Positions 38,202-62,882 are shown, counted from the first letter of the stretch. The stretch: 64,000 nucleotides of DNA from an uncultured Bifidobacteriaceae bacterium (GCA_964501785.1 CAZCUD010000002.1:197836-261835), one strand, 5' to 3'. The notes: generated by a model from the sequence alone, not told the origin. Numbers and translations: made by a program.

Positions 38202-38903
38202 ATGTCGGCGGAGACCCGTTCGGGCGAGTCGTTCGAGGGCCAGACCGAGGTCACCGTCCTGGCCAACGCCGACGACGCGGACGCGGGGCTCGTGGGGGCG
38301 GCGCTCGCAGCCCGCGGGTTCCGGCTGACGACGCTGCACCGAGAGGCCGACCGCTGGCCCGACAAGGTGCGGACGGCGCTGCTCGTCGTCCTGGGCTCCG
38401 AGTGGTCCGTCTACGCCGACGCGTTCGCCGACGCCGTCGACCGGGAACGCGGCTTCGTCGCGGCCGCGGTCGAGGCCCACGTCCCCGTGCTCGGGATCTG
38501 CTTCGGCGCGCAGATGCTCGCCGCGGCACTCGGAGGCGAGGTGCGCCCGGCCGACCGCGAAGAGGTCGGCTGGCACGAGGTCCGTCCCGAACCCGGCGCC
38601 GCGGACGCGATCACCGCCGGCCCGTGGTTCCAGTTCCACCGCGACACCTTCACGCTGCCGCCCGCGGCGCGGCTGCTGGCGACCTCCGACGTCGGCCCGC
38701 AGGCGTTCTCGTACGGCTCTGCGCTGGCCGTGCAGTTCCACCCGGAGGTCACGCCCGGCATCGTCGCCCGTTGGGCTGCTGGCGACCCCGAGCCAGTCGC
38801 GCGCGCGGGCCTCAGCGCCGACGACCTCGTCGCCCGCACCGACGCCGAGCAGGACCGAGCCGCGGTCGCCGCCGCCCGCCTCGTCGACCTCGTGCTCGCG
38901 TAG
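38202..38903 (+). CDS. class I glutamine amidotransferase-like protein
   Basis: LGICFGAQ nucleophile elbow and QFHPE. Confidence 0.88.
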   Translation: MSAETRSGESFEGQTEVTVLANADDADAGLVGAALAARGFRLTTLHREADRWPDKVRTALLVVLGSEWSVYADAFADAVDRERGFVAAAVEAHVPVLGICFGAQMLAAALGGEVRPADREEVGWHEVRPEPGAADAITAGPWFQFHRDTFTLPPAARLLATSDVGPQAFSYGSALAVQFHPEVTPGIVARWAAGDPEPVARAGLSADDLVARTDAEQDRAAVAAARLVDLVLA

Positions 38904-38985
38904 GGTTGCCCTGGTTGCGTCGCTCACCGTCGTGGGGCGGGTCGAGAGACGCATCGAGTGGTTCGAGCGAGCCGGGGGGAAGGTC

Positions 38986-40119
38986 ATGGCGCTCATCGAC
39001 TGCGATCAGCACCTCTACGAGCCGCGCGCTCTGTGGCGCGAGCACGCCGACCCCGCGGAGCGCGACGACGCGCTCGTCATCGTGGACGACGAGCTCGGCT
39101 ACCCGTGGATCACCTGGCGGGGCGAGCGCCTGGGCATGGCCGACGTGCAGCAGCCCGGCGAGACCGACGAGCTCGGCGAGCGCCGCAACCGGCGGCTCGC
39201 AGGTAGAGCGCCGGACTACCGCTACGACGAGCGGCTCCCCGACGACTTCTGGGATCCGGCTGCTCGTGCCGCGCGCGTCCGCGACATGGGCTTCGACGCC
39301 GCGGTCTGCTTCCCCAACTTCGGACTCCTGTGGGAACGCAGGGTCGGCGTCGATCTGCCGTCGTTGCGCACGAACATGGGCGCGTGGAACCGCTGGTGCA
39401 CGTCGGTGGTCCATGACGGCGCGGGCGCGCTCCACCCGGTCGCGCACCTGACCCTGCGCGACCTCGACTGGCTCGACGACCAGCTCGGGCAGCTCCAGGC
39501 GGGAGGCGTCCGGCTCGCCATGATCGCCCCGTCGCTCGTCGACGGGAAGCCCCCGTCGCATCCCGATCTCGAGCGCGCCTGGCGGTCGTTCGTCGCGCAC
39601 GGCGTGACCCCGGTGTTCCACGTCGCCGACCAACCGCGCGTGTTCGACGACGCGTGGTACACCGACGACGGCGAGGAGGCGCTCGTCAACATCACCGAGT
39701 CGGTGTTCTTGTGGACGCCGGCCGCGCTCGCGATCACCGACCTGATCGTCAACGGCGTGTTCGAGCGCATCCCCGAGCTGCGGATCGGCGTCGTCGAGCT
39801 GTCCGCGATCTGGGTGCCCCAGTACCTCATGATGCTCGACGGCGGGTACGACTTCACGAGCAAGCTCAACGGCACCGTGCCCGTGCCGTTGTCGATGCGC
39901 CCGAGCGACTACTTCCGTCGCCACGTGCGCGTCGCCGCGTTCTCCTACGAGCTGCCCGCCCGGCTCGAGCGTCAGGCCGGCGACCTCTTCATGTGCTGCA
40001 GCGACTACCCGCACTCCGAGGGAACGGCGACGCCCATCGCCGACTACGAGCGCACCGGCGCCTCCCCCGCCGACCACGCCGGGCTCTTCGGCGCGAACCT
40101 CGAGTCGCTCCTCGTCTGA
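38986..40119 (+). CDS. amidohydrolase_2 family protein
   Basis: IDCDQH, FH, VVELSAIW and SDYPHSEG. Confidence 0.88.
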   Translation: MALIDCDQHLYEPRALWREHADPAERDDALVIVDDELGYPWITWRGERLGMADVQQPGETDELGERRNRRLAGRAPDYRYDERLPDDFWDPAARAARVRDMGFDAAVCFPNFGLLWERRVGVDLPSLRTNMGAWNRWCTSVVHDGAGALHPVAHLTLRDLDWLDDQLGQLQAGGVRLAMIAPSLVDGKPPSHPDLERAWRSFVAHGVTPVFHVADQPRVFDDAWYTDDGEEALVNITESVFLWTPAALAITDLIVNGVFERIPELRIGVVELSAIWVPQYLMMLDGGYDFTSKLNGTVPVPLSMRPSDYFRRHVRVAAFSYELPARLERQAGDLFMCCSDYPHSEGTATPIADYERTGASPADHAGLFGANLESLLV

Positions 40120-40128
40120 GCAGTCGTG

Positions 40129-41739
40129 TCAGGTGACCTGCTCCTTCGCCCACGCGTAGTCCGGCTTGCCGGCGGCGTTGCGGGGGATCCGGTCGACGAT
40201 CAGCAGTGCCCGCGGCACCTTGTACCCCGCGAGCATCGCTCGGCAGTGCGCGTCCAGCTCGTCGAGCGTCGGCGGCCGATCGTCCACGGCCTGCACGACG
40301 GCCACCACCCGCTCACCCCAGCGATCGTCGGGAGCGCCGACCACGACCGCGTCGAACACGCCGTCGTGCGACTTGAGCACCGCTTCGACCTCGTCGGGAT
40401 AGACCTTCTCGCCCCCGGTGTTGATGCACAGCGAACCGCGACCGTGCAGGTGGACCGTGCCATCGGCGTCGATCGACGCCATGTCGCCCGGCAGCGTGTA
40501 CCGCTCACCGTCGATCGTCACGAACGTGCGTGCCGACGCCTCGGGATCCTTGTAGTACCCGAGCGGCGAGCGGCCTCTGGTGGCGAGGCGCCCGACCGCC
40601 CCGGTCCCCGGCGGGATCGGCCGCATCGAGTCGTCGACGACGATCGTGTCGGGCTTCGACGCGAACGTGAGCGACGGCGGAGCCGTGGCGCCCTGCGGCG
40701 TCACCGACACCGCTTGGCTCGGTGACTCCGACGAGCCGATCGCCTCGAGCACGACCGCCACCGACGGCATCGCGGCGAGCAAGCCGTCCTTCACGTCGCT
40801 CGAGAGGATGCTCCCGCCCGACCCGAGGAGGCGCACCGACGACGTGTCCCAACGATCCGGCTCGGCGCGCAGCGCGTCGAGCAGCGGACGGGCGGTCGCG
40901 TCACCGACGAGCGTGAGCATCCCGACCCGCTCGCGCGCGACGAGATCGAGCAGGTGCACGACGTCGAACGACGACGCGTCGTAGAGGACCAGGGTCCCGG
41001 CCCCGAGCAACGTGCCGAGCGCGAGCCACTGACCGCTCGCATGCCCGAGCGGACCGAGCGACAGCGCCACGAACTCCCCGGGCCCAGGGTCGTCGGGCGG
41101 CAGGAACACACCGATCCGCTGGTTCCGGTTGGCCAGCGTGACGGGAACGAGCTGCTCGGGCGCGCCGAGCGGCTCGCCGCCGGGGTTCCCGCCTCCGATC
41201 GCGGTGAAGAAGATGTCTTCGTGGCGCCACACGACGCCCTTCGGACGCCCGGTCGTGCCGCCCGTATAGAGGATGTAGTGATCGTCACCGGAACGGCGGC
41301 CGAAGTCGCGCACCGGCGACTCGGCGGCCAGCGCAGCGTCGTAGTCGCCGTCATCTCCCGTGCACAGCACCCACCGGCGCGGGCTCGCGACGTCGGCCGG
41401 AGCCGCAGGTCGCGACCCGTCCATCACGATGCCGACGACGTCGGCGTCATCGACGACGTCGACCACCTCGGCCGCGACGTACCGGTCGTTCACGTTGATC
41501 GGCACCGCCCGCAGCTTGAACGCTCCGAGCATGGCCTCGAGGAACTCCGGACACGATCGCAGGTAGAGCCCGACGTGCTCACCCGCCTGCACGCCACGCG
41601 TTCGCATCGAGTGCGCGGCGCGGGTCGCGCGCTCGTCCAGCTCTGCGTAGGTGAGGCGCTCGTCACCGTGGACGACGGCGACGCGCTCGGGCACCGCGTC
41701 CGCGATCGCCTCGAACAGGTCGGCGAGGTTCCACTGCAA
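40129..41739 (-). CDS. acyl-CoA synthetase (FadD19-like)
   Basis: WNLADLFEAIAD, YTGGTTGRPKGV, GYYKDP and GGEKVYPDEVE. Confidence 0.92.
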   Translation of the reverse strand: MQWNLADLFEAIADAVPERVAVVHGDERLTYAELDERATRAAHSMRTRGVQAGEHVGLYLRSCPEFLEAMLGAFKLRAVPINVNDRYVAAEVVDVVDDADVVGIVMDGSRPAAPADVASPRRWVLCTGDDGDYDAALAAESPVRDFGRRSGDDHYILYTGGTTGRPKGVVWRHEDIFFTAIGGGNPGGEPLGAPEQLVPVTLANRNQRIGVFLPPDDPGPGEFVALSLGPLGHASGQWLALGTLLGAGTLVLYDASSFDVVHLLDLVARERVGMLTLVGDATARPLLDALRAEPDRWDTSSVRLLGSGGSILSSDVKDGLLAAMPSVAVVLEAIGSSESPSQAVSVTPQGATAPPSLTFASKPDTIVVDDSMRPIPPGTGAVGRLATRGRSPLGYYKDPEASARTFVTIDGERYTLPGDMASIDADGTVHLHGRGSLCINTGGEKVYPDEVEAVLKSHDGVFDAVVVGAPDDRWGERVVAVVQAVDDRPPTLDELDAHCRAMLAGYKVPRALLIVDRIPRNAAGKPDYAWAKEQVT

Positions 41740-57974: not shown

Positions 57975-58559
57975 TCAGCGCTCACTGAGGGACCGCAGCT
58001 CCTCGGGAGCCCACGCGGGCCACGTCGGCGCTTCCACGAGCGCACCTCGCTCGAAGCGCGCGACGATCCGATACGGCGACGCCGCGGCGGTGTTGTCGTA
58101 GACCAACACTTCGTCGACGATCCCGATGGCGTCCGCGACGAGCGCCCACAGACGCTGGTAGCGCCCGCGGATCTTCTCCTCCGGCACGGCGTGTCCGCCA
58201 TGCTCGACGCGCTGAGCGACCCGCGCGACGGCGAGCGCTTCCGGGACCATCACGACGTGCAACGTGACGAGGTAGCCCGCGTCTCGCGCCGAACGCACGA
58301 GGTCGAGCTTCGACTCGTGCGAGAAGACGGTCTCCGCGATGAACGAGCGTCTCGAAGCGATGAGCCCGTCGCGCTCCTCGGCAGCGAGCCGCGCGGCCTC
58401 GTACGCGTTGCGCGCCGCATCCTCGGGCCAACGTCGCGCCGCGATGACATCCGCGTTCACGAATGGCAGGTGCGTCGTGGGCTCGATCACCCGCTCGCAG
58501 AGGAGTGACTTCCCCGCACCGTTCGGCCCGACGACCAGGTGCAGGACCGGGTCGCGCAC
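57975..58559 (-). CDS. zeta-toxin/P-loop kinase family toxin
   Basis: GPNGAGKS, FVNADVIA, FIAETVF, RVAQRVEHGGH and YDN. Confidence 0.88.
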   Translation of the reverse strand: MRDPVLHLVVGPNGAGKSLLCERVIEPTTHLPFVNADVIAARRWPEDAARNAYEAARLAAEERDGLIASRRSFIAETVFSHESKLDLVRSARDAGYLVTLHVVMVPEALAVARVAQRVEHGGHAVPEEKIRGRYQRLWALVADAIGIVDEVLVYDNTAAASPYRIVARFERGALVEAPTWPAWAPEELRSLSER

Positions 58560-59056
58560 TACGCGCGCCTTCGACCGGCCTTCTTCGTCGTCGCCTTCTT
58601 CGACGCAACCTTCTTCGCGGTGGTGCCCTTCGGTGTGCTCGCCGCGCGACGTGTCGTGGCCTTCGCGCCGTTCCCCCGCCGCGTCTGACGCTTGCGCGCC
58701 GGAGCGGGCTCGCTGCGCTCGACGACGGCACCATCGGCATCGAGCTCGACCCAGCGCCGACCCTCGGCGGCGAGCTCATCGGCGAGGTCGAGCGAGCTCC
58801 GCACCTCGTCCATCCGCGCCGACCACTCCGCGCGGACGATGGCCTGCTCCTTGGCGCTCAGCCCGTCGTAGGAGCGGCTGCCGGCGAGCACCTCGTTGAT
58901 GTCGCGCAGCGAGAGCGCACCCGACGCCTCGATCTCCCGCCCGATGCGAGCCCAATGCGCCACCTGCTGGGAGGCGCTCCGGCTCTGCGCCTCGCCCGCG
59001 AGCTTGGCCGAGGCGTACAGGTCGTCGTCGATGCGAGCCGGGGACGTCGTGGCCAT
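58559..59056 (-). CDS. RHH (ParD-like) antitoxin with Lys/Ala-rich tail
   Basis: RIDDDLY..SRSASQQVAHWARIGR; TAGTG overlap with the toxin. Confidence 0.82.
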   Translation of the reverse strand: MATTSPARIDDDLYASAKLAGEAQSRSASQQVAHWARIGREIEASGALSLRDINEVLAGSRSYDGLSAKEQAIVRAEWSARMDEVRSSLDLADELAAEGRRWVELDADGAVVERSEPAPARKRQTRRGNGAKATTRRAASTPKGTTAKKVASKKATTKKAGRRRA

Positions 59057-59152
59057 CCGGGGACCTCCGTTCCTCGATCGCTCCAACTGTAGCAATCTGC
59101 AACATCCTTGCGCGGAGCGCCTCCTCCTCGCGGGAGGCCAGCCGACGCGAAG

Positions 59153-59176
59153 CAGCGGCCTCCGAAGAGGCCGCTG
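59153..59176 (-). terminator. hairpin downstream of displaced tRNA-Gly fragment
   Basis: CAGCGGCCTC-4nt-GAGGCCGCTG, a perfect 10-bp stem. Confidence 0.7.
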
Positions 59177-59187
59177 CGTCAGGGATC

Positions 59188-59232
59188 TGGAGCGGACGAC
59201 GGGATTCGAACCCGCGACCCTCACCTTGGCAA
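59188..59232 (-). repeat. att site: 3' half of tRNA-Gly(GCC), 45-bp direct repeat with 62807-62851
   Basis: TGGAGCGGACGACGGGATTCGAACCCGCGACCCTCACCTTGGCAA is identical at both positions. Confidence 0.97.
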
Positions 59233-59375
59233 CCAGATAAGAGCCGGTCGTCCGTCGGTGTCCGTTGCGTGTGTGCAGGTCGTGCCTCTGCGTTGCCGTG
59301 CGACTTCGACGCCGCCGTACGCGATTGCGCTCTATCGATTTGGCAACAGCACTCTGCCAGACGGCGGCGGTCGAT

Positions 59376-59879
59376 CTATTCATCCAGCAGGCGCAACTCG
59401 GTGAGCACGTCATTGGCCGCGGAGAAGAGTTTCGAAAGGGGCACATCACCGCGGATCAGGTCATCAGGAGCCGCGACCGCCGTATAGCCACCTGAGAGCG
59501 TCAGCACCTGGAAGCGGACGCTTCCTGCGGTTGGAAGCGGGAAGCGCGTCGTCGGCTCGAACAGATCGAGCACCGCTTCAGCCTGAGCGACCACACGTTT
59601 GCTGAGAAGCGCGACGCGCGCGTGCTCGCCACCGCCGATCACCCCGCCGCCCGTCGAGAGATAGAGGCTCGTCGTCCCATCGGAGAGGGAAACGAGAGTC
59701 GAGGTTCCCTCATCGTGGGCAATCTCAGTGAGAACACAGAACACTCGCCCGGGATCCGAGGAGTCGAAGCCGAGGTCGCGTGCGTCGGTTCGAAGTATCA
59801 GGTCGCGGAGATCACCGTACGGCGACGAAGACCCAGCCGACTCTTGGCGCCGGTTCTTCCTCTTCCCGAAGAAGGCCAC
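59376..59879 (-). CDS. hypothetical protein (167 aa)
   Basis: GGAGG RBS before GTG; DGTTSLYLSTGGGVIGGGEH. Confidence 0.7.
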   Translation of the reverse strand: MAFFGKRKNRRQESAGSSSPYGDLRDLILRTDARDLGFDSSDPGRVFCVLTEIAHDEGTSTLVSLSDGTTSLYLSTGGGVIGGGEHARVALLSKRVVAQAEAVLDLFEPTTRFPLPTAGSVRFQVLTLSGGYTAVAAPDDLIRGDVPLSKLFSAANDVLTELRLLDE

Positions 59880-60056
59880 ATCGCCTCCGTCTCCCAGCGC
59901 TAGCGGATGAACGCCGCAGCTTCTCATCGAGCGCCTACAGGCGACGCGCAAACGCAGGCCTGAAAAGACGAACCCGCATGGGAATACACCTTTGCACGTC
60001 CCGCCCCTTCGGGCGGGACGTGCTCGCGAGCAACTCCGCGCGGACGTCCCTCCGGG

Positions 60057-60503
60057 CTAGAGATCTGGGTGGATCAGTTGAAGCGAAGGAAACTCTCGGC
60101 TCATGGTCTCGAAGTGCTTGAGGTTGTTCGTCAACACGGGCAGCGGCTCGGGCTGCGCGAGCGCGCTCGCGGCAACCCACATGTCGTTTGCGCCGCTGTC
60201 ACCGAACTGACCGCGGAACTTGGCGTGCAACTTCGCCCACCAGAGCGCGACGGCGTAGTCGACTGGAATGATCAAGTGACGCCGGATAAAGCCTTCGAGC
60301 GCGTCGCGCCTGCGTGCACCGAGCCGGATCACCTCCGCGGCGCCAAGCAGCTCACCGACCGAGGCGAACGCAAGGCACAACACGTGACCCTGCAAGAAGG
60401 GCGTGAAACGGTCCCTTGCCGCGCCTTCGCGTTCAAAGTGGACGTAGCTGGCTACGTCGGTGTCGACCAACAGGGGTCCGGGCGGAACGTCCTCGGGGGT
60501 CAC
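60057..60503 (-). CDS. PIN domain (VapC/FitB-like) nuclease
   Basis: LVDTDV, SVGEL, ANDMWVAASA and LTNNLKHF. Confidence 0.9.
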   Translation of the reverse strand: MTPEDVPPGPLLVDTDVASYVHFEREGAARDRFTPFLQGHVLCLAFASVGELLGAAEVIRLGARRRDALEGFIRRHLIIPVDYAVALWWAKLHAKFRGQFGDSGANDMWVAASALAQPEPLPVLTNNLKHFETMSREFPSLQLIHPDL

Positions 60504-61417
60504 GGGATCGCGTCAAGGAACGCCGCCGCCTCGTCCTCTGACGTTTCACCGTCAAACAACTCGTTCGGGTCGGCGACCTCGCTGATGCCCTGTTCGTTGG
60601 CTAGCTCCGCGATGGTTCGGCCCCGCCAGAACGCCTGACCGCCATCGTCAAGGACCTCGAGCTGTTCGGGCCGAACGAGCCTGCGGAGCTCCACGCTGGT
60701 AATACGACCGGTGCGAGGGTCGTACGCGACCACGCCCTGCAATTCGGTTTGGCGGCGGAGCCAAGTTTGGATCTCGTCGGCCTGGGCCTCATCGAATGCC
60801 ACTGGGACCCGGGTGTTATCGCTGGTCCGCACATGCGCGGTGTGTGACTCGAAATCCGCCTCGACCAAGGTTCCGACCACCCGATCCTCGCGTGCGGGTC
60901 GCTCACGAGCGCTGCGCCGTCGTTCCCGAAGTTGCACGACCTTTTCGGCATCCAATTGCGCCGACCGGCGACCCCGTCGCCGCGGGCGGCCAAGCGTCAC
61001 AGTCAGCCGTTCGTAGCGACTGCCGATTCCCAGCTCCTCGCCGAGAAGCGTGACCGCGTCCACGACGCGGTCATCCGCCGGCGACGAAGGATTGTCCACC
61101 AGCGCCAAGAGGTCAGCAGCAGCCAATTCCCCGAGGTGCATGTCCTCAAGATCGAGTTCATCAAGCCCGGCGCTCAACTCGGGGAGTTCAAGCTCCGCCA
61201 CAAGGCTTCCGCTTGAGATCCCGCGAAAGATCAGGTGTGTCGTCGCCTCAATTGCACCACCACGCCTCCCAGTCCGGGCCCGCCGGCCGACGCGCGCCTC
61301 GGCCGCCCGTGCGACAGCACGCTCTGTGCCCTCAAGCAGTCGAGCGACGTCCGTTGCCGGAATCGCTCCAATCCGGGCACTGGGCCCTTCAAGCCGCGCT
61401 TGGATGATCTCGCCCAT
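60500..61417 (-). CDS. hypothetical ~305 aa protein translationally coupled to the PIN gene
   Basis: GTGA overlap with PIN; acidic C-terminal tail. Start may be further upstream (61531). Confidence 0.75.
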   Translation of the reverse strand: MGEIIQARLEGPSARIGAIPATDVARLLEGTERAVARAAEARVGRRARTGRRGGAIEATTHLIFRGISSGSLVAELELPELSAGLDELDLEDMHLGELAAADLLALVDNPSSPADDRVVDAVTLLGEELGIGSRYERLTVTLGRPRRRGRRSAQLDAEKVVQLRERRRSARERPAREDRVVGTLVEADFESHTAHVRTSDNTRVPVAFDEAQADEIQTWLRRQTELQGVVAYDPRTGRITSVELRRLVRPEQLEVLDDGGQAFWRGRTIAELANEQGISEVADPNELFDGETSEDEAAAFLDAIP

Positions 61418-61523
61418 GCGAGTGATCGTCGCAGATGGTCGCCTTGCACGCACGACGTCTTCTCCTGGCTGACCCCTCGCAGCTTCGACCCTAGGGGTCC
61501 CCTGTGACAGGAGATCCACCCCC

Positions 61524-62657
61524 TCAGCCATCCGCTTCATCAAGAAGCCGGCCCAACAGATCCGCAGCCTTGTGATCCGTCGCCGCGATGAAGTGCGAGT
61601 ACACGTTGAGAGTTGTTGACGCCCTTGCGTGTCCGAGGCGGCCGGCCACGGTGGAGATGGGAACGCCGGCGGCGAGGAGCGTCGTCGCGACGTAGTGGCG
61701 CAGGTCGTGCAGCCGCACATGTTCGAGACCTGCAGCACGCCGTAGACGGCCGAATCGATTCGTCACGCCGTCCGGGCGCCAGGGCTTCGCGCCATCCGGC
61801 TCGAACGAGAACACGAACGATCTGCCGGCGATCGAGATCCCTGCCTGGTTCGCGCGGACCTGGGACCGGTCCGCGTGGGATCTCAGGAGGTCCGTGACGG
61901 ACTCGTCGATGGCGACCCGGTAGGCGCGCCCGTTCTTGGTGCCCTTGAGCACGACGCCGTTGGGACCGTCGACGACGCCGCGAGCGAACAGGATCGACCT
62001 CCCATCGAGGTCGACGTCGCGCCATTGGAGCCCGCACATCTGACTCCGGCGCGCTCCCGTCGACGCGGCGAGGCGCAGGTAGCAGTGCAGGTCGGGATCC
62101 TCGGTCTCGGCGAGCGCGAGCAGCCTCGCCATGTCGCTCGGACTCGGCGGCACGATCTCGGGTGCGGTCTCCTTGGGCAACGTCGCGAGCGCGGCCGGGT
62201 TCGTCGTGAGCCAGCCCCACTTGAGGCCCTGCTGCAGTGCTCGCCGCAGCACGGCATGGATGCGGCGCACGGTTGCAGGCGAGAGGGACTTCCCTCGCCT
62301 ACCGCCGGACGCCCGCAGCTCTGCGTAGAGCAGGTCGACGTCGTGCACGCCGAGGCTCCGGACCGCGACGTCGCCGATGCGCGGCTTCAGGTAACAGTCG
62401 ATGACGCTGCGGTGCTGCACGACGGCCCACGGCGTCCACGACGACTCGGCGATCTCGAACCACCGCTCGAGGAGCTCCCCGACCGTCTCGCCCTCGTGCT
62501 CGTCGGCCTCGACGACCAGGCGGGCGAGCTCGCGCTCGGCCTCGCGCTTGGTCCCTCGCACCGACCGGCGCAGGTACTTCCGACGTCCCTCGGCGTCGAC
62601 GCCGGCGTAGGCGACGATCTCCCAGGCCTTGCCCCGCTTGCGCATGTGGCCTCGCAC
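61524..62657 (-). CDS. int: tyrosine integrase of the tRNA-Gly islet
   Basis: TGARRSQ (R), HDLRH, RLGH and VYSH (Y). Confidence 0.95.
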   Translation of the reverse strand: MRGHMRKRGKAWEIVAYAGVDAEGRRKYLRRSVRGTKREAERELARLVVEADEHEGETVGELLERWFEIAESSWTPWAVVQHRSVIDCYLKPRIGDVAVRSLGVHDVDLLYAELRASGGRRGKSLSPATVRRIHAVLRRALQQGLKWGWLTTNPAALATLPKETAPEIVPPSPSDMARLLALAETEDPDLHCYLRLAASTGARRSQMCGLQWRDVDLDGRSILFARGVVDGPNGVVLKGTKNGRAYRVAIDESVTDLLRSHADRSQVRANQAGISIAGRSFVFSFEPDGAKPWRPDGVTNRFGRLRRAAGLEHVRLHDLRHYVATTLLAAGVPISTVAGRLGHARASTTLNVYSHFIAATDHKAADLLGRLLDEADG

Positions 62658-62729
62658 GGCCGCTCCTCCCGGCCAACCCGGTGGAGCGCCGGTCTCTCAA
62701 GGCGTTCGAGCGGCCGACATGCCCACACT

Positions 62730-62750
62730 TGATTGGCAGAGTGATTGGCA
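62730..62750. repeat. candidate arm sites 2 x TGATTGGCA (12-bp period)
   Basis: TGGCAGAGTG at 62734-62743 is the exact inverse of CACTCTGCCA at 59350-59359 near the other end. Confidence 0.5.
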
Positions 62751-62769
62751 ATCGCGCCCGGACGCGAAG

Positions 62770-62793
62770 CAGCGGCCTCCGGAGAGGCCGCTG
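62770..62793 (-). terminator. hairpin downstream of tRNA-Gly
   Basis: Perfect 10-bp stem, same as 59153-59176. Confidence 0.7.
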
Positions 62794-62806
62794 ACCTGCG
62801 CATTCT

Positions 62807-62882
62807 TGGAGCGGACGACGGGATTCGAACCCGCGACCCTCACCTTGGCAAGGTGATGCTCTACCAACTGAGCCACGTCCGC
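62807..62882 (-). tRNA. tRNA-Gly(GCC)
   Basis: GCGGACG acceptor stem, TCACC-TTGCCAA-GGTGA anticodon arm, GGTTCGAATCC T arm and encoded CCA; 76 nt. Confidence 0.97.

What the first reader, a model, noticed from the sequence alone, without database searches (positions are those of the whole stretch)
59233..62806. 3.6-kb integrase islet carrying a PIN toxin with an oversized multidomain partner: candidate new defence system
Seen: the only cargo is a ~305-aa protein, a PIN nuclease with intact acidic residues (GTGA-coupled to it) and a 167-aa unknown. The large protein has an N-terminal alpha/beta region (RGISSGSLVAELEL), a beta-rich OB-like part (VVGTLVEADFESHTAHVRT...LQGVVAYDPRTGRITSVEL) and an acidic tail (FWRGRTIAELANEQGISEVADPNELFDGETSEDEAAAFLDAIP). 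It has no RHH/AbrB/Phd N-terminus. Known: VapB antitoxins are ~70-90 aa and neutralise through acidic C-terminal tails; tRNA-integrated islets are hotspots for anti-phage systems, and several TA-like defences use a sensor-antitoxin. Inference: a sensor fused to an antitoxin tail releases a tRNA/rRNA-cleaving PIN on phage infection (abortive infection). I cannot assign it to a named system.
Basis: partly seen in the sequence, partly recalled or inferred. Interest (0 to 1): 0.8.

Follow-up and report, generated by a model that had tools for sequence, protein, structure and literature searches.

The report
PIN toxin with large OB-fold partner
A 3.6-kb mobile islet inserted at a glycine tRNA gene carries a PIN ribonuclease gene coupled to a 305-residue partner from an uncharacterised family; the pair looks like a toxin-antitoxin module with an unusually large antitoxin, and a role in phage defence is possible but unshown.

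Summary
An exact 45-nt repeat of the tRNA-Gly(GCC) 3' half bounds a low-GC 3.6-kb islet. The islet carries an intact tyrosine integrase, a 305-aa protein, a 148-aa PIN nuclease (GTGA stop/start overlap) and an unrelated 167-aa gene.

The 305-aa protein has no Pfam, NCBIfam or PHROG match. It belongs to a family of about 300-aa proteins (781 clusters at 50% identity) from uncultured Actinomycetota, Dormibacterota and Chloroflexota. A co-diverging PIN gene or its remnant lies immediately downstream in every locus long enough to show it, nearly always with an NTGA overlap.

AlphaFold2 predicts three parts:
- a confident N-terminal alpha/beta domain with no PDB neighbour;
- a canonical OB fold;
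- a strongly acidic, low-confidence C-terminal tail.

Best reading: a VapBC-like type II toxin-antitoxin module with a new multidomain antitoxin, carried by tRNA-targeting islets.

The "sensor-antitoxin defence" idea is not excluded. 31 of 33 family members are remote homologues of PADLOC's untested candidate PDC-M32A. The N-domain fold recurs in PDC-M02B, the partner of a DUF4365 nuclease. However, the window proteins match no system, genomic contexts are mixed, and nothing has been tested. It is a new variant of a known kind, of moderate interest.

The parts
62807..62882 (-). tRNA-Gly (anticodon GCC), the integration target; its 3' half (62807-62851) is one copy of the 45-nt att repeat
   Evidence: ARAGORN; direct repeat D1
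59188..59232 (.). Second copy of the 45-nt repeat (100% identical duplicate of the tRNA 3' half); far boundary of the islet
   Evidence: the repeat finder D1, spacing 3619 nt
62761..62793 (.). 33-nt GC-rich hairpin just downstream of the tRNA; duplicated with 1 mismatch at 59144-59176, so the repeated att region extends beyond the tRNA
   Evidence: the repeat finder D2, 97% identity; sequence read
59144..59176 (.). Second copy of the 33-nt hairpin, outside the far att repeat
   Evidence: the repeat finder D2
61524..62657 (-). Tyrosine integrase, 377 aa, apparently intact (the R...HxxR...Y region is readable in the translation)
   Evidence: PF00589 6.8e-24; phrog_1 integrase 1.3e-63; XerC/D-like NCBIfam hits
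60500..61417 (-). 305-aa partner protein (putative large antitoxin). N-terminal alpha/beta domain, residues 1-172 (61417-60902). OB fold, about residues 176-250 (60892-60668). Acidic tail, residues 251-305 (60667-60503).
   Evidence: Start agrees with homologues. No Pfam, NCBIfam or PHROG hit. AF2 pLDDT 85.6 full length and 90.2 for the N-domain alone. Foldseek OB hits. Tail charge -13.
60057..60503 (-). 148-aa PIN-domain nuclease (VapC-like); its GTG start overlaps the partner's TGA stop (GTGA)
   Evidence: PF01850 1.5e-6; VapC NCBIfam models; best PDB sequence matches are tRNA(fMet)-specific VapC, 3tnd at 1.4e-7; D14, E51 and D106 invariant in the family
59994..60023 (-). Perfect 13-bp GC-rich hairpin (GAAG loop) 34 nt after the PIN stop codon. 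Probable end of the two-gene operon; no U-tract.
   Evidence: strand folding centroid structure, z = -2.76; not called by the T-tract terminator scan
59376..59879 (-). 167-aa protein of unknown function. Separate cargo gene, not part of the module.
   Evidence: 57 homologues of about 170 aa, none annotated; they occur alone in unrelated contexts; never found next to the pair in other loci

Best explanation
The module is the two genes at 61417-60057. It is a VapBC-like type II toxin-antitoxin pair in which the usual 70-90-aa VapB is replaced by a 305-aa protein of a new family. That protein has a novel N-terminal alpha/beta domain, an OB fold and a roughly 55-residue acidic tail.

Proposed mechanism:
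1. The two proteins are made from one translationally coupled operon. The coupling (stop/start overlap) is shown.
2. The acidic C-terminal tail, disordered on its own, folds onto the PIN dimer and blocks its active site. This is inferred from analogy with VapB tails, the charge, the low model confidence and the gene order.
3. If the partner is lost, degraded or displaced, the PIN cleaves an RNA essential for translation, most likely a tRNA. This is inferred from its closest solved relatives, the tRNA(fMet)-specific VapCs.
4. The N-domain and OB fold provide oligomerisation and nucleic-acid binding, for autoregulation and/or for sensing a trigger. This step is inferred and is the least certain.

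The pair is selfish cargo of a 3.6-kb tRNA-Gly integrative islet, which it would stabilise. Any anti-phage activity would come on top of that and is unproven.
For: - Islet anatomy: tRNA, 45-nt exact repeat, integrase and a GC dip.
- The PIN is VapC-like, with three invariant catalytic acidic residues.
- The partner family is conserved and uniform in architecture: 43 close homologues and 781 clusters at E<=1e-3, nearly all about 300 aa and without fused domains.
- A homologous PIN gene or its remnant follows immediately in all 18 genome loci and in the metagenome loci. The NTGA stop/start overlap is present in most.
- Identities of partner and PIN co-vary across loci (r = 0.70), so the two are inherited as a unit.
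- The tail is strongly acidic (typically -7 to -13). It is the least conserved part of the protein (37% mean pairwise identity against 48% for the OB fold) and the least confidently modelled (pLDDT 49-75), as expected for a fold-on-binding toxin-binding region.
- Decay is asymmetric. The PIN is deleted or truncated in L011, L012 and L023 while the partner gene persists. I found no locus with an intact PIN and a missing partner.
- The distribution is patchy and context-independent, with frequent association with integrases and tRNAs. L003 is a 6.1-kb tRNA-Pro islet. L013 has tRNA-Ser, integrase and the pair in that order. L018, L019 and L005 have tRNA genes adjacent. L029 has an integrase and an excisionase-type HTH gene.
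- A large multidomain VapB has an experimental precedent, VapB52 (PMC13273310).
Against: - No experiment and no complex model: binding of the tail to the PIN is inferred only.
- The tail profile matches no known antitoxin in Pfam or the PDB.
- The fourth canonical acidic residue of the PIN is His in this protein, so activity is not guaranteed. However, the PIN.COG1487 group, which contains 3tnd, is listed with 2-4 acidic residues (PMC5499597).
- I found no conserved operator-like palindrome upstream of the family's genes, so autoregulation by DNA binding has no support.
- The OB fold has an invariant acidic strand (E-A-D-F-E), which is unusual for a nucleic-acid-binding face.
- About 250 residues of well-folded, conserved domains are more than neutralisation alone needs. 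The partner therefore probably does something further that this explanation does not specify.
Confidence: 0.55

Rival explanations
1. Sensor-antitoxin abortive-infection system. The N-domain and OB fold detect a phage-derived cue such as ssDNA, RNA or a phage protein. Detection removes the tail from the PIN, by conformational change or degradation, and the freed PIN cleaves tRNA or rRNA and aborts the infection.
For: - 31 of 33 family members hit the PADLOC candidate PDC-M32A, colinearly over about 200 residues, with a best E-value of 3e-11.
- 15 members hit PDC-M02B weakly and 7 hit PDC-M63B weakly.
- The N-domain model matches phage LE1 protein Q6NE06 (Foldseek E 7e-5, TM-score 0.65 normalised to the query). 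That gene is PDC-M02B (1e-64), and its operon partner is a DUF4365 nuclease, PDC-M02A. The same module therefore appears with different small nucleases, as expected of a regulator or sensor.
- These candidates were found embedded in BREX, DISARM and type I RM loci (10.1101/2024.01.29.577857).
- Some neighbours are defence genes or lie on mobile elements: a ResIII helicase with an N6_N4 methylase (L027), a TIR_2 protein (L001), MNT/HEPN (L003) and Mrr_cat (L029).
- VapB52 shows that a large VapB can be triggered by ssDNA (PMC13273310).
- The OB fold resembles ssDNA- and RNA-binding OB folds.
Against: - The window protein itself scores only 0.002-0.04 against PDC-M32A, and the PIN matches neither PDC-M32B nor any other PADLOC model.
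- The PDC systems are untested. PDC-M63AB gave no defence phenotype in its native E. coli host (10.1101/2024.12.20.629700).
- Many loci sit among housekeeping or metabolic genes.
- The link to PDC-M02B rests on fold and weak HMM hits only; hhalign of the family profile against LE1-0037 found nothing.
- No peptidase, HTH or other recognised signalling domain is present.
- The family was not found in plasmid, phage or IMG/VR collections.
Confidence: 0.25
2. This is a two-subunit ribonuclease rather than a toxin-antitoxin pair. The OB-fold protein is an RNA-binding specificity or scaffold subunit that recruits the PIN to a particular RNA, for processing or quality control, and the complex is the active form.
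For: - The OB fold resembles IF1, eIF1A and S1-type RNA-binding OB folds.
- The pairing is strict and the two proteins co-diverge.
- Several loci lie among housekeeping genes such as ribosomal proteins L28 and L32, and plsX.
- PIN domains act together with OB or S1 domains in RNA-processing enzymes. This is general knowledge and was not tested here.
Against: - The distribution is patchy rather than that of a core gene, and the pair is carried on integrase and tRNA islets.
- PIN-only decay occurs in several genomes.
- The acidic, poorly ordered tail and the gene order (partner first, stop/start overlap) are the signature of an antitoxin.
- The invariant acidic E-A-D-F-E strand on the OB fold argues against a classical RNA-binding face.
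Confidence: 0.12
3. The pair is an inert remnant. The module is decaying cargo of a defunct islet and no longer functions in this genome.
For: - The fourth PIN acidic residue is replaced by His.
- PIN genes are degraded in some relatives.
- No empty-site allele was found that would show the islet is currently mobile.
Against: - Both reading frames are intact and full length, and the start/stop coupling is preserved.
- The att repeats are 100% identical over 45 nt and the integrase is intact.
- The His variant is shared by a whole subclade with otherwise conserved PINs: L003, L004, L008 and L026.
Confidence: 0.05

Closest known systems
VapBC type II toxin-antitoxin modules, especially the tRNA(fMet)-specific VapC of Shigella/Salmonella/Haemophilus/Leptospira (PDB 3tnd, 6sd6, 5ed0; NCBIfam NF047863, NF010285)
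   Same: - The toxin is a roughly 140-aa PIN domain of the same sequence group (E 1e-7 to 5e-8).
- The partner gene is upstream and translationally coupled.
- The partner has an acidic C-terminal region.
- The module sits on a mobile element.
   Different: - The partner is 305 aa, not 70-90 aa.
- It has no RHH, AbrB, Phd or HTH domain. It has a novel alpha/beta domain and an OB fold instead.
- Its tail has no detectable sequence similarity to known VapBs.
- The fourth PIN acidic residue is His here.
VapBC52 of Mycobacterium tuberculosis (PMC13273310)
   Same: - A PIN toxin neutralised by an unusually large multidomain VapB.
- The extra domains are proposed to couple a nucleic-acid signal (ssDNA) to toxin release.
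- It comes from an actinobacterium.
   Different: - VapB52 is 415 aa, with an IrrE/ImmA-type HEXXH peptidase and an HTH motif, and it cleaves itself.
- The window protein has no HEXXH motif (read directly from the sequence), no peptidase hit and no HTH hit. It has an OB fold instead.
- In VapB52 the N-terminal domain is the critical binding element. Here the C-terminal tail is the candidate.
PADLOC phage-defence candidate PDC-M32 (component A), from 'guilt-by-embedding' (bioRxiv 10.1101/2024.01.29.577857)
   Same: - The N-domain and OB core of the family is a remote, colinear homologue of PDC-M32A (31 of 33 members; best 3e-11; roughly residues 50-257 of both).
- Both are two-gene cassettes.
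   Different: - The PDC-M32A profiles are about 375 positions long against 305 aa here, and the C-terminal regions differ.
- The window protein itself scores only 0.002-0.04.
- The PIN does not match PDC-M32B.
- PDC-M32 is untested, and I could not establish what domain its B component carries.
PADLOC candidate PDC-M02 (DUF4365 nuclease plus a roughly 380-aa partner), for example Leptospira phage LE1 genes LE1-0038 and LE1-0037
   Same: - The N-terminal domain fold is shared (Foldseek E 7e-5, TM-score 0.65 normalised to the query).
- 15 family members give weak HMM hits to PDC-M02B.
- The partner is a small nuclease in the same operon.
   Different: - The nuclease is a DUF4365 domain, not a PIN, and it is encoded upstream rather than downstream.
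- No profile-level similarity to LE1-0037 itself was found.
- PDC-M02B is 380 aa, and I did not show that it contains an OB fold.
Small tRNA-targeting integrative islets carrying toxin-antitoxin cargo
   Same: Tyrosine integrase next to a tRNA gene, a direct repeat of the tRNA 3' half, a deviating GC content and toxin-antitoxin cargo. A second case is L003, a 6.1-kb islet at tRNA-Pro that also carries MNT/HEPN.
   Different: - It is exceptionally small (3.6 kb) and has no recognisable excisionase.
- Current mobility is not shown.

Membership tests
VapBC type II toxin-antitoxin | Toxin is a PIN domain with the conserved acidic catalytic residues | tested here: met
   PF01850 above the gathering score. 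D14, E51 and D106 are invariant in the family. The fourth position is His130 in the window protein and Asp in most relatives. The PIN.COG1487 group is listed with 2-4 acidic residues (PMC5499597).
VapBC type II toxin-antitoxin | Antitoxin gene immediately upstream in the same operon, usually overlapping the toxin start | tested here: met
   GTGA overlap in the window. An NTGA overlap is present in most homologous loci.
VapBC type II toxin-antitoxin | Small (about 70-90 aa) antitoxin with an N-terminal RHH, AbrB, Phd/YefM or HTH DNA-binding domain | tested here: not met
   The partner is 305 aa with no such domain in Pfam or NCBIfam. The model shows a novel alpha/beta domain and an OB fold.
VapBC type II toxin-antitoxin | Antitoxin binds and neutralises the toxin; the toxin alone arrests growth | not testable with these tools
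   Only indirect support: an acidic, low-confidence tail and PIN-only decay in L011, L012 and L023.
VapBC type II toxin-antitoxin | Autoregulation through an operator upstream of the operon | tested here: inconclusive
   No shared palindrome was found in 22 upstream regions. Only short 5-bp-arm palindromes can be read in the window's 106-nt spacer.
VapBC52-like (peptidase-HTH antitoxin) | IrrE/ImmA HEXXH metallopeptidase and HTH in the antitoxin | tested here: not met
   The 305-aa sequence contains no HEXXH motif. No peptidase or HTH family hit.
PADLOC PDC-M32 | Component A matches a PDC-M32A model | tested here: inconclusive
   The window protein scores E = 0.0023 and 0.039, covering the OB region only. 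31 of 33 family members match, with a best E of 3e-11, colinearly. This is remote homology, not membership.
PADLOC PDC-M32 | Adjacent gene matches PDC-M32B | tested here: not met
   The window PIN and four homologous PINs give no PDC-M32B hit at E<=0.1.
PADLOC PDC-M02 | DUF4365 nuclease (component A) next to a roughly 380-aa component B | tested here: not met
   The nuclease here is a PIN, not DUF4365. Component B similarity is limited to the N-domain fold and weak HMM hits.
tRNA-integrated genomic islet | Tyrosine integrase adjacent to a tRNA gene, with a direct repeat of the tRNA 3' part at the far end | tested here: met
   45-nt exact repeat 3619 nt apart, with the integrase next to the tRNA.
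tRNA-integrated genomic islet | Base composition differs from the flanks | tested here: met
   GC 0.63-0.66 inside against 0.70-0.72 outside.
tRNA-integrated genomic islet | Presence/absence polymorphism (an empty attB site in relatives) | tested here: inconclusive
   Two exact-match scans of metagenome contigs for the reconstructed empty site found nothing. Exact matching would find only very close relatives.

The most novel reading that the evidence does not exclude
The N-terminal alpha/beta domain, with or without the OB fold, is a previously unnamed regulatory or sensor module. It would be shared by a superfamily of two-gene nuclease systems: this PIN-linked family, PDC-M32, PDC-M02 with its DUF4365 nuclease, and PDC-M63. 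In this reading it holds different small nucleases inactive and releases them on sensing an infection cue, much as the Panacea domain serves as a promiscuous antitoxin. The window module would be the PIN-armed, actinobacterial branch of a new class of abortive-infection systems.
Probability: 0.2. Interest if true: 0.75.

Novelty: new variant of a known kind. Interest (0 to 1): 0.5.

Why it matters
If the pair works as proposed, it adds a second architecture of large, multidomain VapB antitoxin. This one is built on an OB fold and a domain with no solved structural relative. It also defines a sizeable unannotated protein family: 781 clusters at 50% identity, with no Pfam, NCBIfam or PHROG model. 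All members found so far come from uncultured Actinomycetota, Dormibacterota and Chloroflexota.

The remote links to PADLOC candidates PDC-M32A and PDC-M02B suggest that the same module partners with different small nucleases. That would make it a useful handle for understanding how toxin-antitoxin-like nucleases are regulated or triggered.

The practical consequence is a clear set of experiments: test toxicity and rescue with full-length, tail-only and tail-less partner; test nucleic-acid binding by the OB fold; challenge with phage. If the module is only an addiction cassette on a mini-islet, it is an ordinary though structurally unusual toxin-antitoxin pair.

Tried and rejected
- Sequence searches of the full-length family profile and of the tail-only profile against the PDB gave only chance-level hits. 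A per-member Pfam scan of the tails and of the full-length proteins gave no consistent family.
- Foldseek of the N-domain model against the PDB found nothing (best E 0.84). I therefore dropped the idea of assigning it to a known fold.
- The weak uS13/S18 match around the 'GIGxRY' motif (E 0.15) was treated as chance. The model puts a helix-to-strand transition there, not a helix-hairpin-helix.
- I looked for variant architectures among the longer or partial hits of the representative search (P0137, P0149, P0172, P0088, P0053, P0164, P0157, P0051). No extra Pfam domains were found.
- Repeating search for homologous proteins with the alignment did not reach beyond the first search because of the candidate cap.
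- tblastn of three family members against the plasmid and phage collections, even at E<=1, gave no match. A pattern scan of IMG/VR also gave no relative.
- I tried to learn what PDC-M32B is. The supplement of the PDC paper gives only family numbers, FAM_01821>>FAM_00608. The S. meliloti prophage paper gives only E-values. This remains unresolved.
- hhalign of the family profile against LE1-0037 gave no signal. The PDC-M02B link is therefore structural and weak-HMM only.
- A search for a conserved operator palindrome upstream of the operon found none.
- The sigma-70 promoter and T-tract terminator scan of the islet found nothing above the shuffled expectation.
- Two exact scans of metagenome contigs for an empty attB site found none.
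- I considered folding a linker-joined fusion of the tail and the PIN to imitate a complex.
- The 167-aa gene was rejected as a third component of the system.

Full report
**1. The observation**

ARAGORN finds tRNA-Gly(GCC) at 62807-62882 on the minus strand. An exact 45-nt copy of its 3' half lies 3619 nt away at 59188-59232. A 33-nt GC-rich hairpin just beyond the repeat is also duplicated with one mismatch (59144-59176 and 62761-62793). GC falls from about 0.70-0.72 in the flanks to 0.63-0.66 inside.

All genes are on the minus strand:
- a 377-aa tyrosine integrase, 62657-61524 (PF00589, 6.8e-24; phrog_1, 1.3e-63);
- a 305-aa protein, 61417-60500;
- a 148-aa PIN protein, 60503-60057, whose GTG start overlaps the preceding TGA stop;
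- a 167-aa ORF, 59879-59376.

The ATG at 61417 is the start supported by the N-termini of homologues.

**2. The PIN**

The PIN passes the Pfam PIN threshold. Its best matches among NCBIfam models and solved structures are the tRNA(fMet)-specific VapC endonucleases (NF047863 at 4.9e-8; 3tnd at 1.4e-7).

In an alignment of 22 PINs from homologous loci, D14, E51 and D106 are invariant. The fourth canonical position aligns with E119 of Shigella VapC. It is Asp in most members but His130 in the window protein and its closest relatives, L003, L004, L008 and L026. The PIN group that contains 3tnd is catalogued with 2-4 acidic residues (PMC5499597), so this does not argue strongly against activity.

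**3. The large partner**

It has no significant hit in Pfam, NCBIfam or PHROGs. No consistent weak Pfam hit appears across 33 family members.

It is not an orphan. A first search found 43 homologues of 37-59% identity, all about 300 aa and all unannotated. An exhaustive profile search found 781 clusters (at 50% identity) at E<=1e-3, of which 167 are at E<=1e-30. Longer or partial hits carry no additional Pfam domains.

In species-representative genomes the family occurs only in uncultured MAGs. These are Acidimicrobiia, Nitriliruptoraceae, Gaiellaceae, Acidothermaceae, Solirubrobacteraceae, Dormibacterota and Chloroflexota. It was not found in the plasmid, phage or IMG/VR collections.

**4. 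Predicted structure**

AlphaFold2 with the family alignment gives a mean pLDDT of 85.6.
- Residues 1-172 (305-aa numbering) form an alpha/beta domain. Modelled alone it reaches pLDDT 90.2 and pTM 0.86. Foldseek finds no PDB neighbour for it (best E 0.84).
- Residues of about 176-250 have the canonical OB topology: three strands, a helix, two strands. They match IF1, eIF1A, RPA14/32, Stn1-Ten1 and S1-like domains. The E-values are modest (about 6e-3 and weaker), but the probability is about 1 and target-normalised TM-scores reach 0.69.
- The last 55 or so residues are helical segments of low confidence (block means 49-75).

Invariant features include a TGRRG loop in the N-domain and an E-A-D-F-E strand at the start of the OB fold. 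The tail carries a net charge of -13 here and typically -7 to -13 in relatives. It is the least conserved segment.

**5. Linkage to the PIN**

In all 18 genome loci and all informative metagenome loci, a homologue of the same PIN, or its remnant, begins at the partner's stop codon. In most it overlaps as GTGA, ATGA or TTGA.

Pairwise identities of partner and PIN are correlated across loci (r = 0.70). Three loci have a PIN with a single frameshift, which may be assembly error. In L011, L012 and L023 the PIN is truncated or internally deleted while the partner gene remains. I saw no locus with an intact PIN and no partner. That asymmetry is what a toxin-antidote relationship predicts.

**6. The third gene**

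The 167-aa protein belongs to a separate family of about 170-aa hypothetical proteins (57 hits). Elsewhere they stand alone, next to an ArsR-type regulator and a GGDEF-EAL protein, or among unrelated genes. The family is never next to the pair in other loci. A perfect 13-bp hairpin follows the PIN stop codon. The system is therefore two genes, not three.

**7. Genomic context**

The pair behaves as mobile cargo.
- L003 is a 6.1-kb islet bounded by a 40-nt exact repeat of tRNA-Pro. It also carries an integrase fragment and an MNT/HEPN pair.
- L013 has tRNA-Ser, an integrase and the pair in the same order as the window.
- In L018 the pair starts 160 nt after a tRNA-Gly(GCC). L019 and L005 also have adjacent tRNAs.
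- L029 lies beside an integrase and an excisionase-type HTH gene, with an Mrr_cat gene nearby.
- L001 lies near a D5 primase and a TIR_2 protein.
- L027 follows a ResIII helicase and an N6_N4 methylase.
- Other loci lie among ordinary genes: ribosomal proteins and plsX (L004), NUDIX and acetyltransferases (L005), the hut operon (L026), assorted enzymes (L030).

This patchy, context-independent distribution is typical of toxin-antitoxin modules. It gives only weak support for a defence-island association.

**8. Relation to catalogued defence candidates**

The window proteins do not hit any PADLOC model convincingly. The partner scores 0.0014-0.04 and the PIN hits nothing relevant.

Scanning all 33 aligned family members changes the picture. 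31 match PDC-M32A models, with a best E of 3e-11, colinearly over roughly positions 50-257 of a 375-position profile. That span covers the N-domain and the OB fold. Fifteen match PDC-M02B weakly and seven match PDC-M63B weakly, through the first 100 or so residues.

Independently, the N-domain model matches three uncharacterised phage proteins in BFVD (E 6.5e-5 to 1.3e-3; query-normalised TM-score 0.52-0.65). One is Leptospira phage LE1 Q6NE06. It is the only 381-aa ORF annotated in the 50 kb of the LE1 record that I read, LE1-0037. LE1-0037 is PDC-M02B (1e-64). The gene just upstream, LE1-0038, is PDC-M02A, a DUF4365 domain. DUF4365 is listed among the nuclease domains associated with short prokaryotic Argonautes (PMC10810196).

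The PDC systems are untested candidates found embedded in BREX, DISARM and type I RM loci (10.1101/2024.01.29.577857). PDC-M63AB gave no phenotype when deleted in its native E. coli host (10.1101/2024.12.20.629700).

The partner is therefore a distant relative of components of catalogued but unvalidated candidates. The N-domain seems to recur beside different small nucleases. hhalign of the family profile against LE1-0037 found nothing, so that particular link is structural only. I could not determine what PDC-M32B is.

**9. Mechanism**

The best-supported reading is a VapBC-like type II module.
- Shown: PIN identity; translational coupling; strict, co-diverging linkage; multidomain partner with an OB fold and an acidic, poorly ordered tail; mobile-element carriage.
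- Inferred: the tail binds and occludes the PIN active site; free PIN cleaves a tRNA or another translation RNA; the pair stabilises the islet.
- Open: what the 250 residues of conserved, folded N-domain and OB fold do. They may provide oligomerisation and operator binding, but no conserved palindrome was found. They may instead sense a nucleic-acid or protein trigger.

VapB52 of M. tuberculosis is an experimental precedent for a large VapB whose extra domains couple ssDNA to toxin release (PMC13273310). Its domains (HEXXH peptidase and HTH) are absent here. I put the toxin-antitoxin reading at about 0.55, the dedicated sensor-antitoxin defence reading at about 0.25, a non-toxic RNA-processing complex at about 0.12, and an inert remnant at about 0.05.

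**10. Novelty and verdict**

The toxin and the islet are ordinary. The partner is a new, sizeable, unannotated family with a domain that has no solved structural neighbour. The combination of a PIN with an OB-fold partner did not surface in a full-text search.

It fails the 'small antitoxin with a DNA-binding domain' criterion of classical VapB and the partner criteria of PDC-M32 and PDC-M02. I therefore file it as a new variant of a known kind: a VapBC-like toxin-antitoxin module with a novel large antitoxin. It is not a member of a named defence system, and it is not categorically new. Interest is moderate (0.5). A specialist would want the complex structure and the toxicity and rescue tests. 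The case would rise sharply if the shared N-domain proved to be a general nuclease-controlling sensor.

Noticed in passing
window 57978-59056 (minus strand): A second toxin-antitoxin pair lies immediately outside the far att repeat. It consists of a ParD_like antitoxin (PF11903, 2e-17; 165 aa with a Lys/Ala/Thr-rich basic tail) at 59056-58559 and a Zeta_toxin/AAA_33 P-loop kinase (PF06414, 5e-14; 194 aa) at 58559-57975. The tRNA-Gly locus is thus flanked by two unrelated toxin-antitoxin modules.
   Followed up: partly
window 59144-59176 and 62761-62793: The 33-nt hairpin downstream of the tRNA is duplicated along with the tRNA 3' half (1 mismatch). An 11-nt versus 13-nt unrelated spacer lies between hairpin and repeat. 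The element's att region therefore covers about 90 nt and includes a copy of the tRNA's terminator-like hairpin.
   Followed up: no
L003, L004, L008, L018, L026, L030: 6-10 nt upstream of the partner's start codon: Many homologous loci have a TANNNT box (TACGCT, TAGGCT or TACGGT) ending 6-10 nt before the ATG or GTG. This suggests an own promoter and leaderless transcripts. The window copy lacks an obvious box before ATG 61417. It has an AGGAG 8 nt before the alternative GTG at 61453.
   Followed up: no
window 59376-59879 (minus strand): The 167-aa cargo gene belongs to a conserved, unannotated family of about 170-aa proteins (57 hits, no Pfam). Elsewhere it is found next to an ArsR-type HTH gene with AHSA1, and next to a GAF-GGDEF-EAL protein. 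Its function is unknown.
   Followed up: partly
L003:3592-9728: A 6.1-kb islet is bounded by a 40-nt exact repeat that covers the 5' half of tRNA-Pro, with an adjacent 45-nt repeat of 84% identity. It carries an integrase fragment, the partner-PIN pair and an MNT/HEPN pair. The repeat covers the 5' rather than the 3' half of the tRNA, which is unusual.
   Followed up: partly
L011:2991-3416, L012:6918-7197, L023:6917-7111: In these loci the PIN gene is truncated, internally deleted or reduced to its first 15-54 codons, while the partner gene is retained. L009, L016 and L024 have single frameshifts that could be assembly errors.
   Followed up: partly
L035 (Leptospira phage LE1, BX571876) 38735-40413, minus strand: LE1-0038 (176 aa, DUF4365) and LE1-0037 (381 aa) are a complete PADLOC PDC-M02 A/B pair on a temperate phage, with E-values of 7.6e-51 and 9.9e-65. 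The record annotates LE1-0037 as a hypothetical protein and gives LE1-0038 no product name.
   Followed up: partly
L018:5764-5839 and L023:145-220: The same tRNA species as in the window, tRNA-Gly(GCC), lies 160 nt upstream of the pair in L018 with no integrase between them, and 5.8 kb upstream in L023. This may reflect decayed islets at the same kind of target.
   Followed up: no
window 60503-60667 (tail of the partner): Two of 25 tails give weak hits to the Pfam helix-hairpin-helix motif (E 0.036) around the conserved 'ELAxEQGV' segment. This is probably chance, but the segment is the best conserved part of the tail.
   Followed up: no
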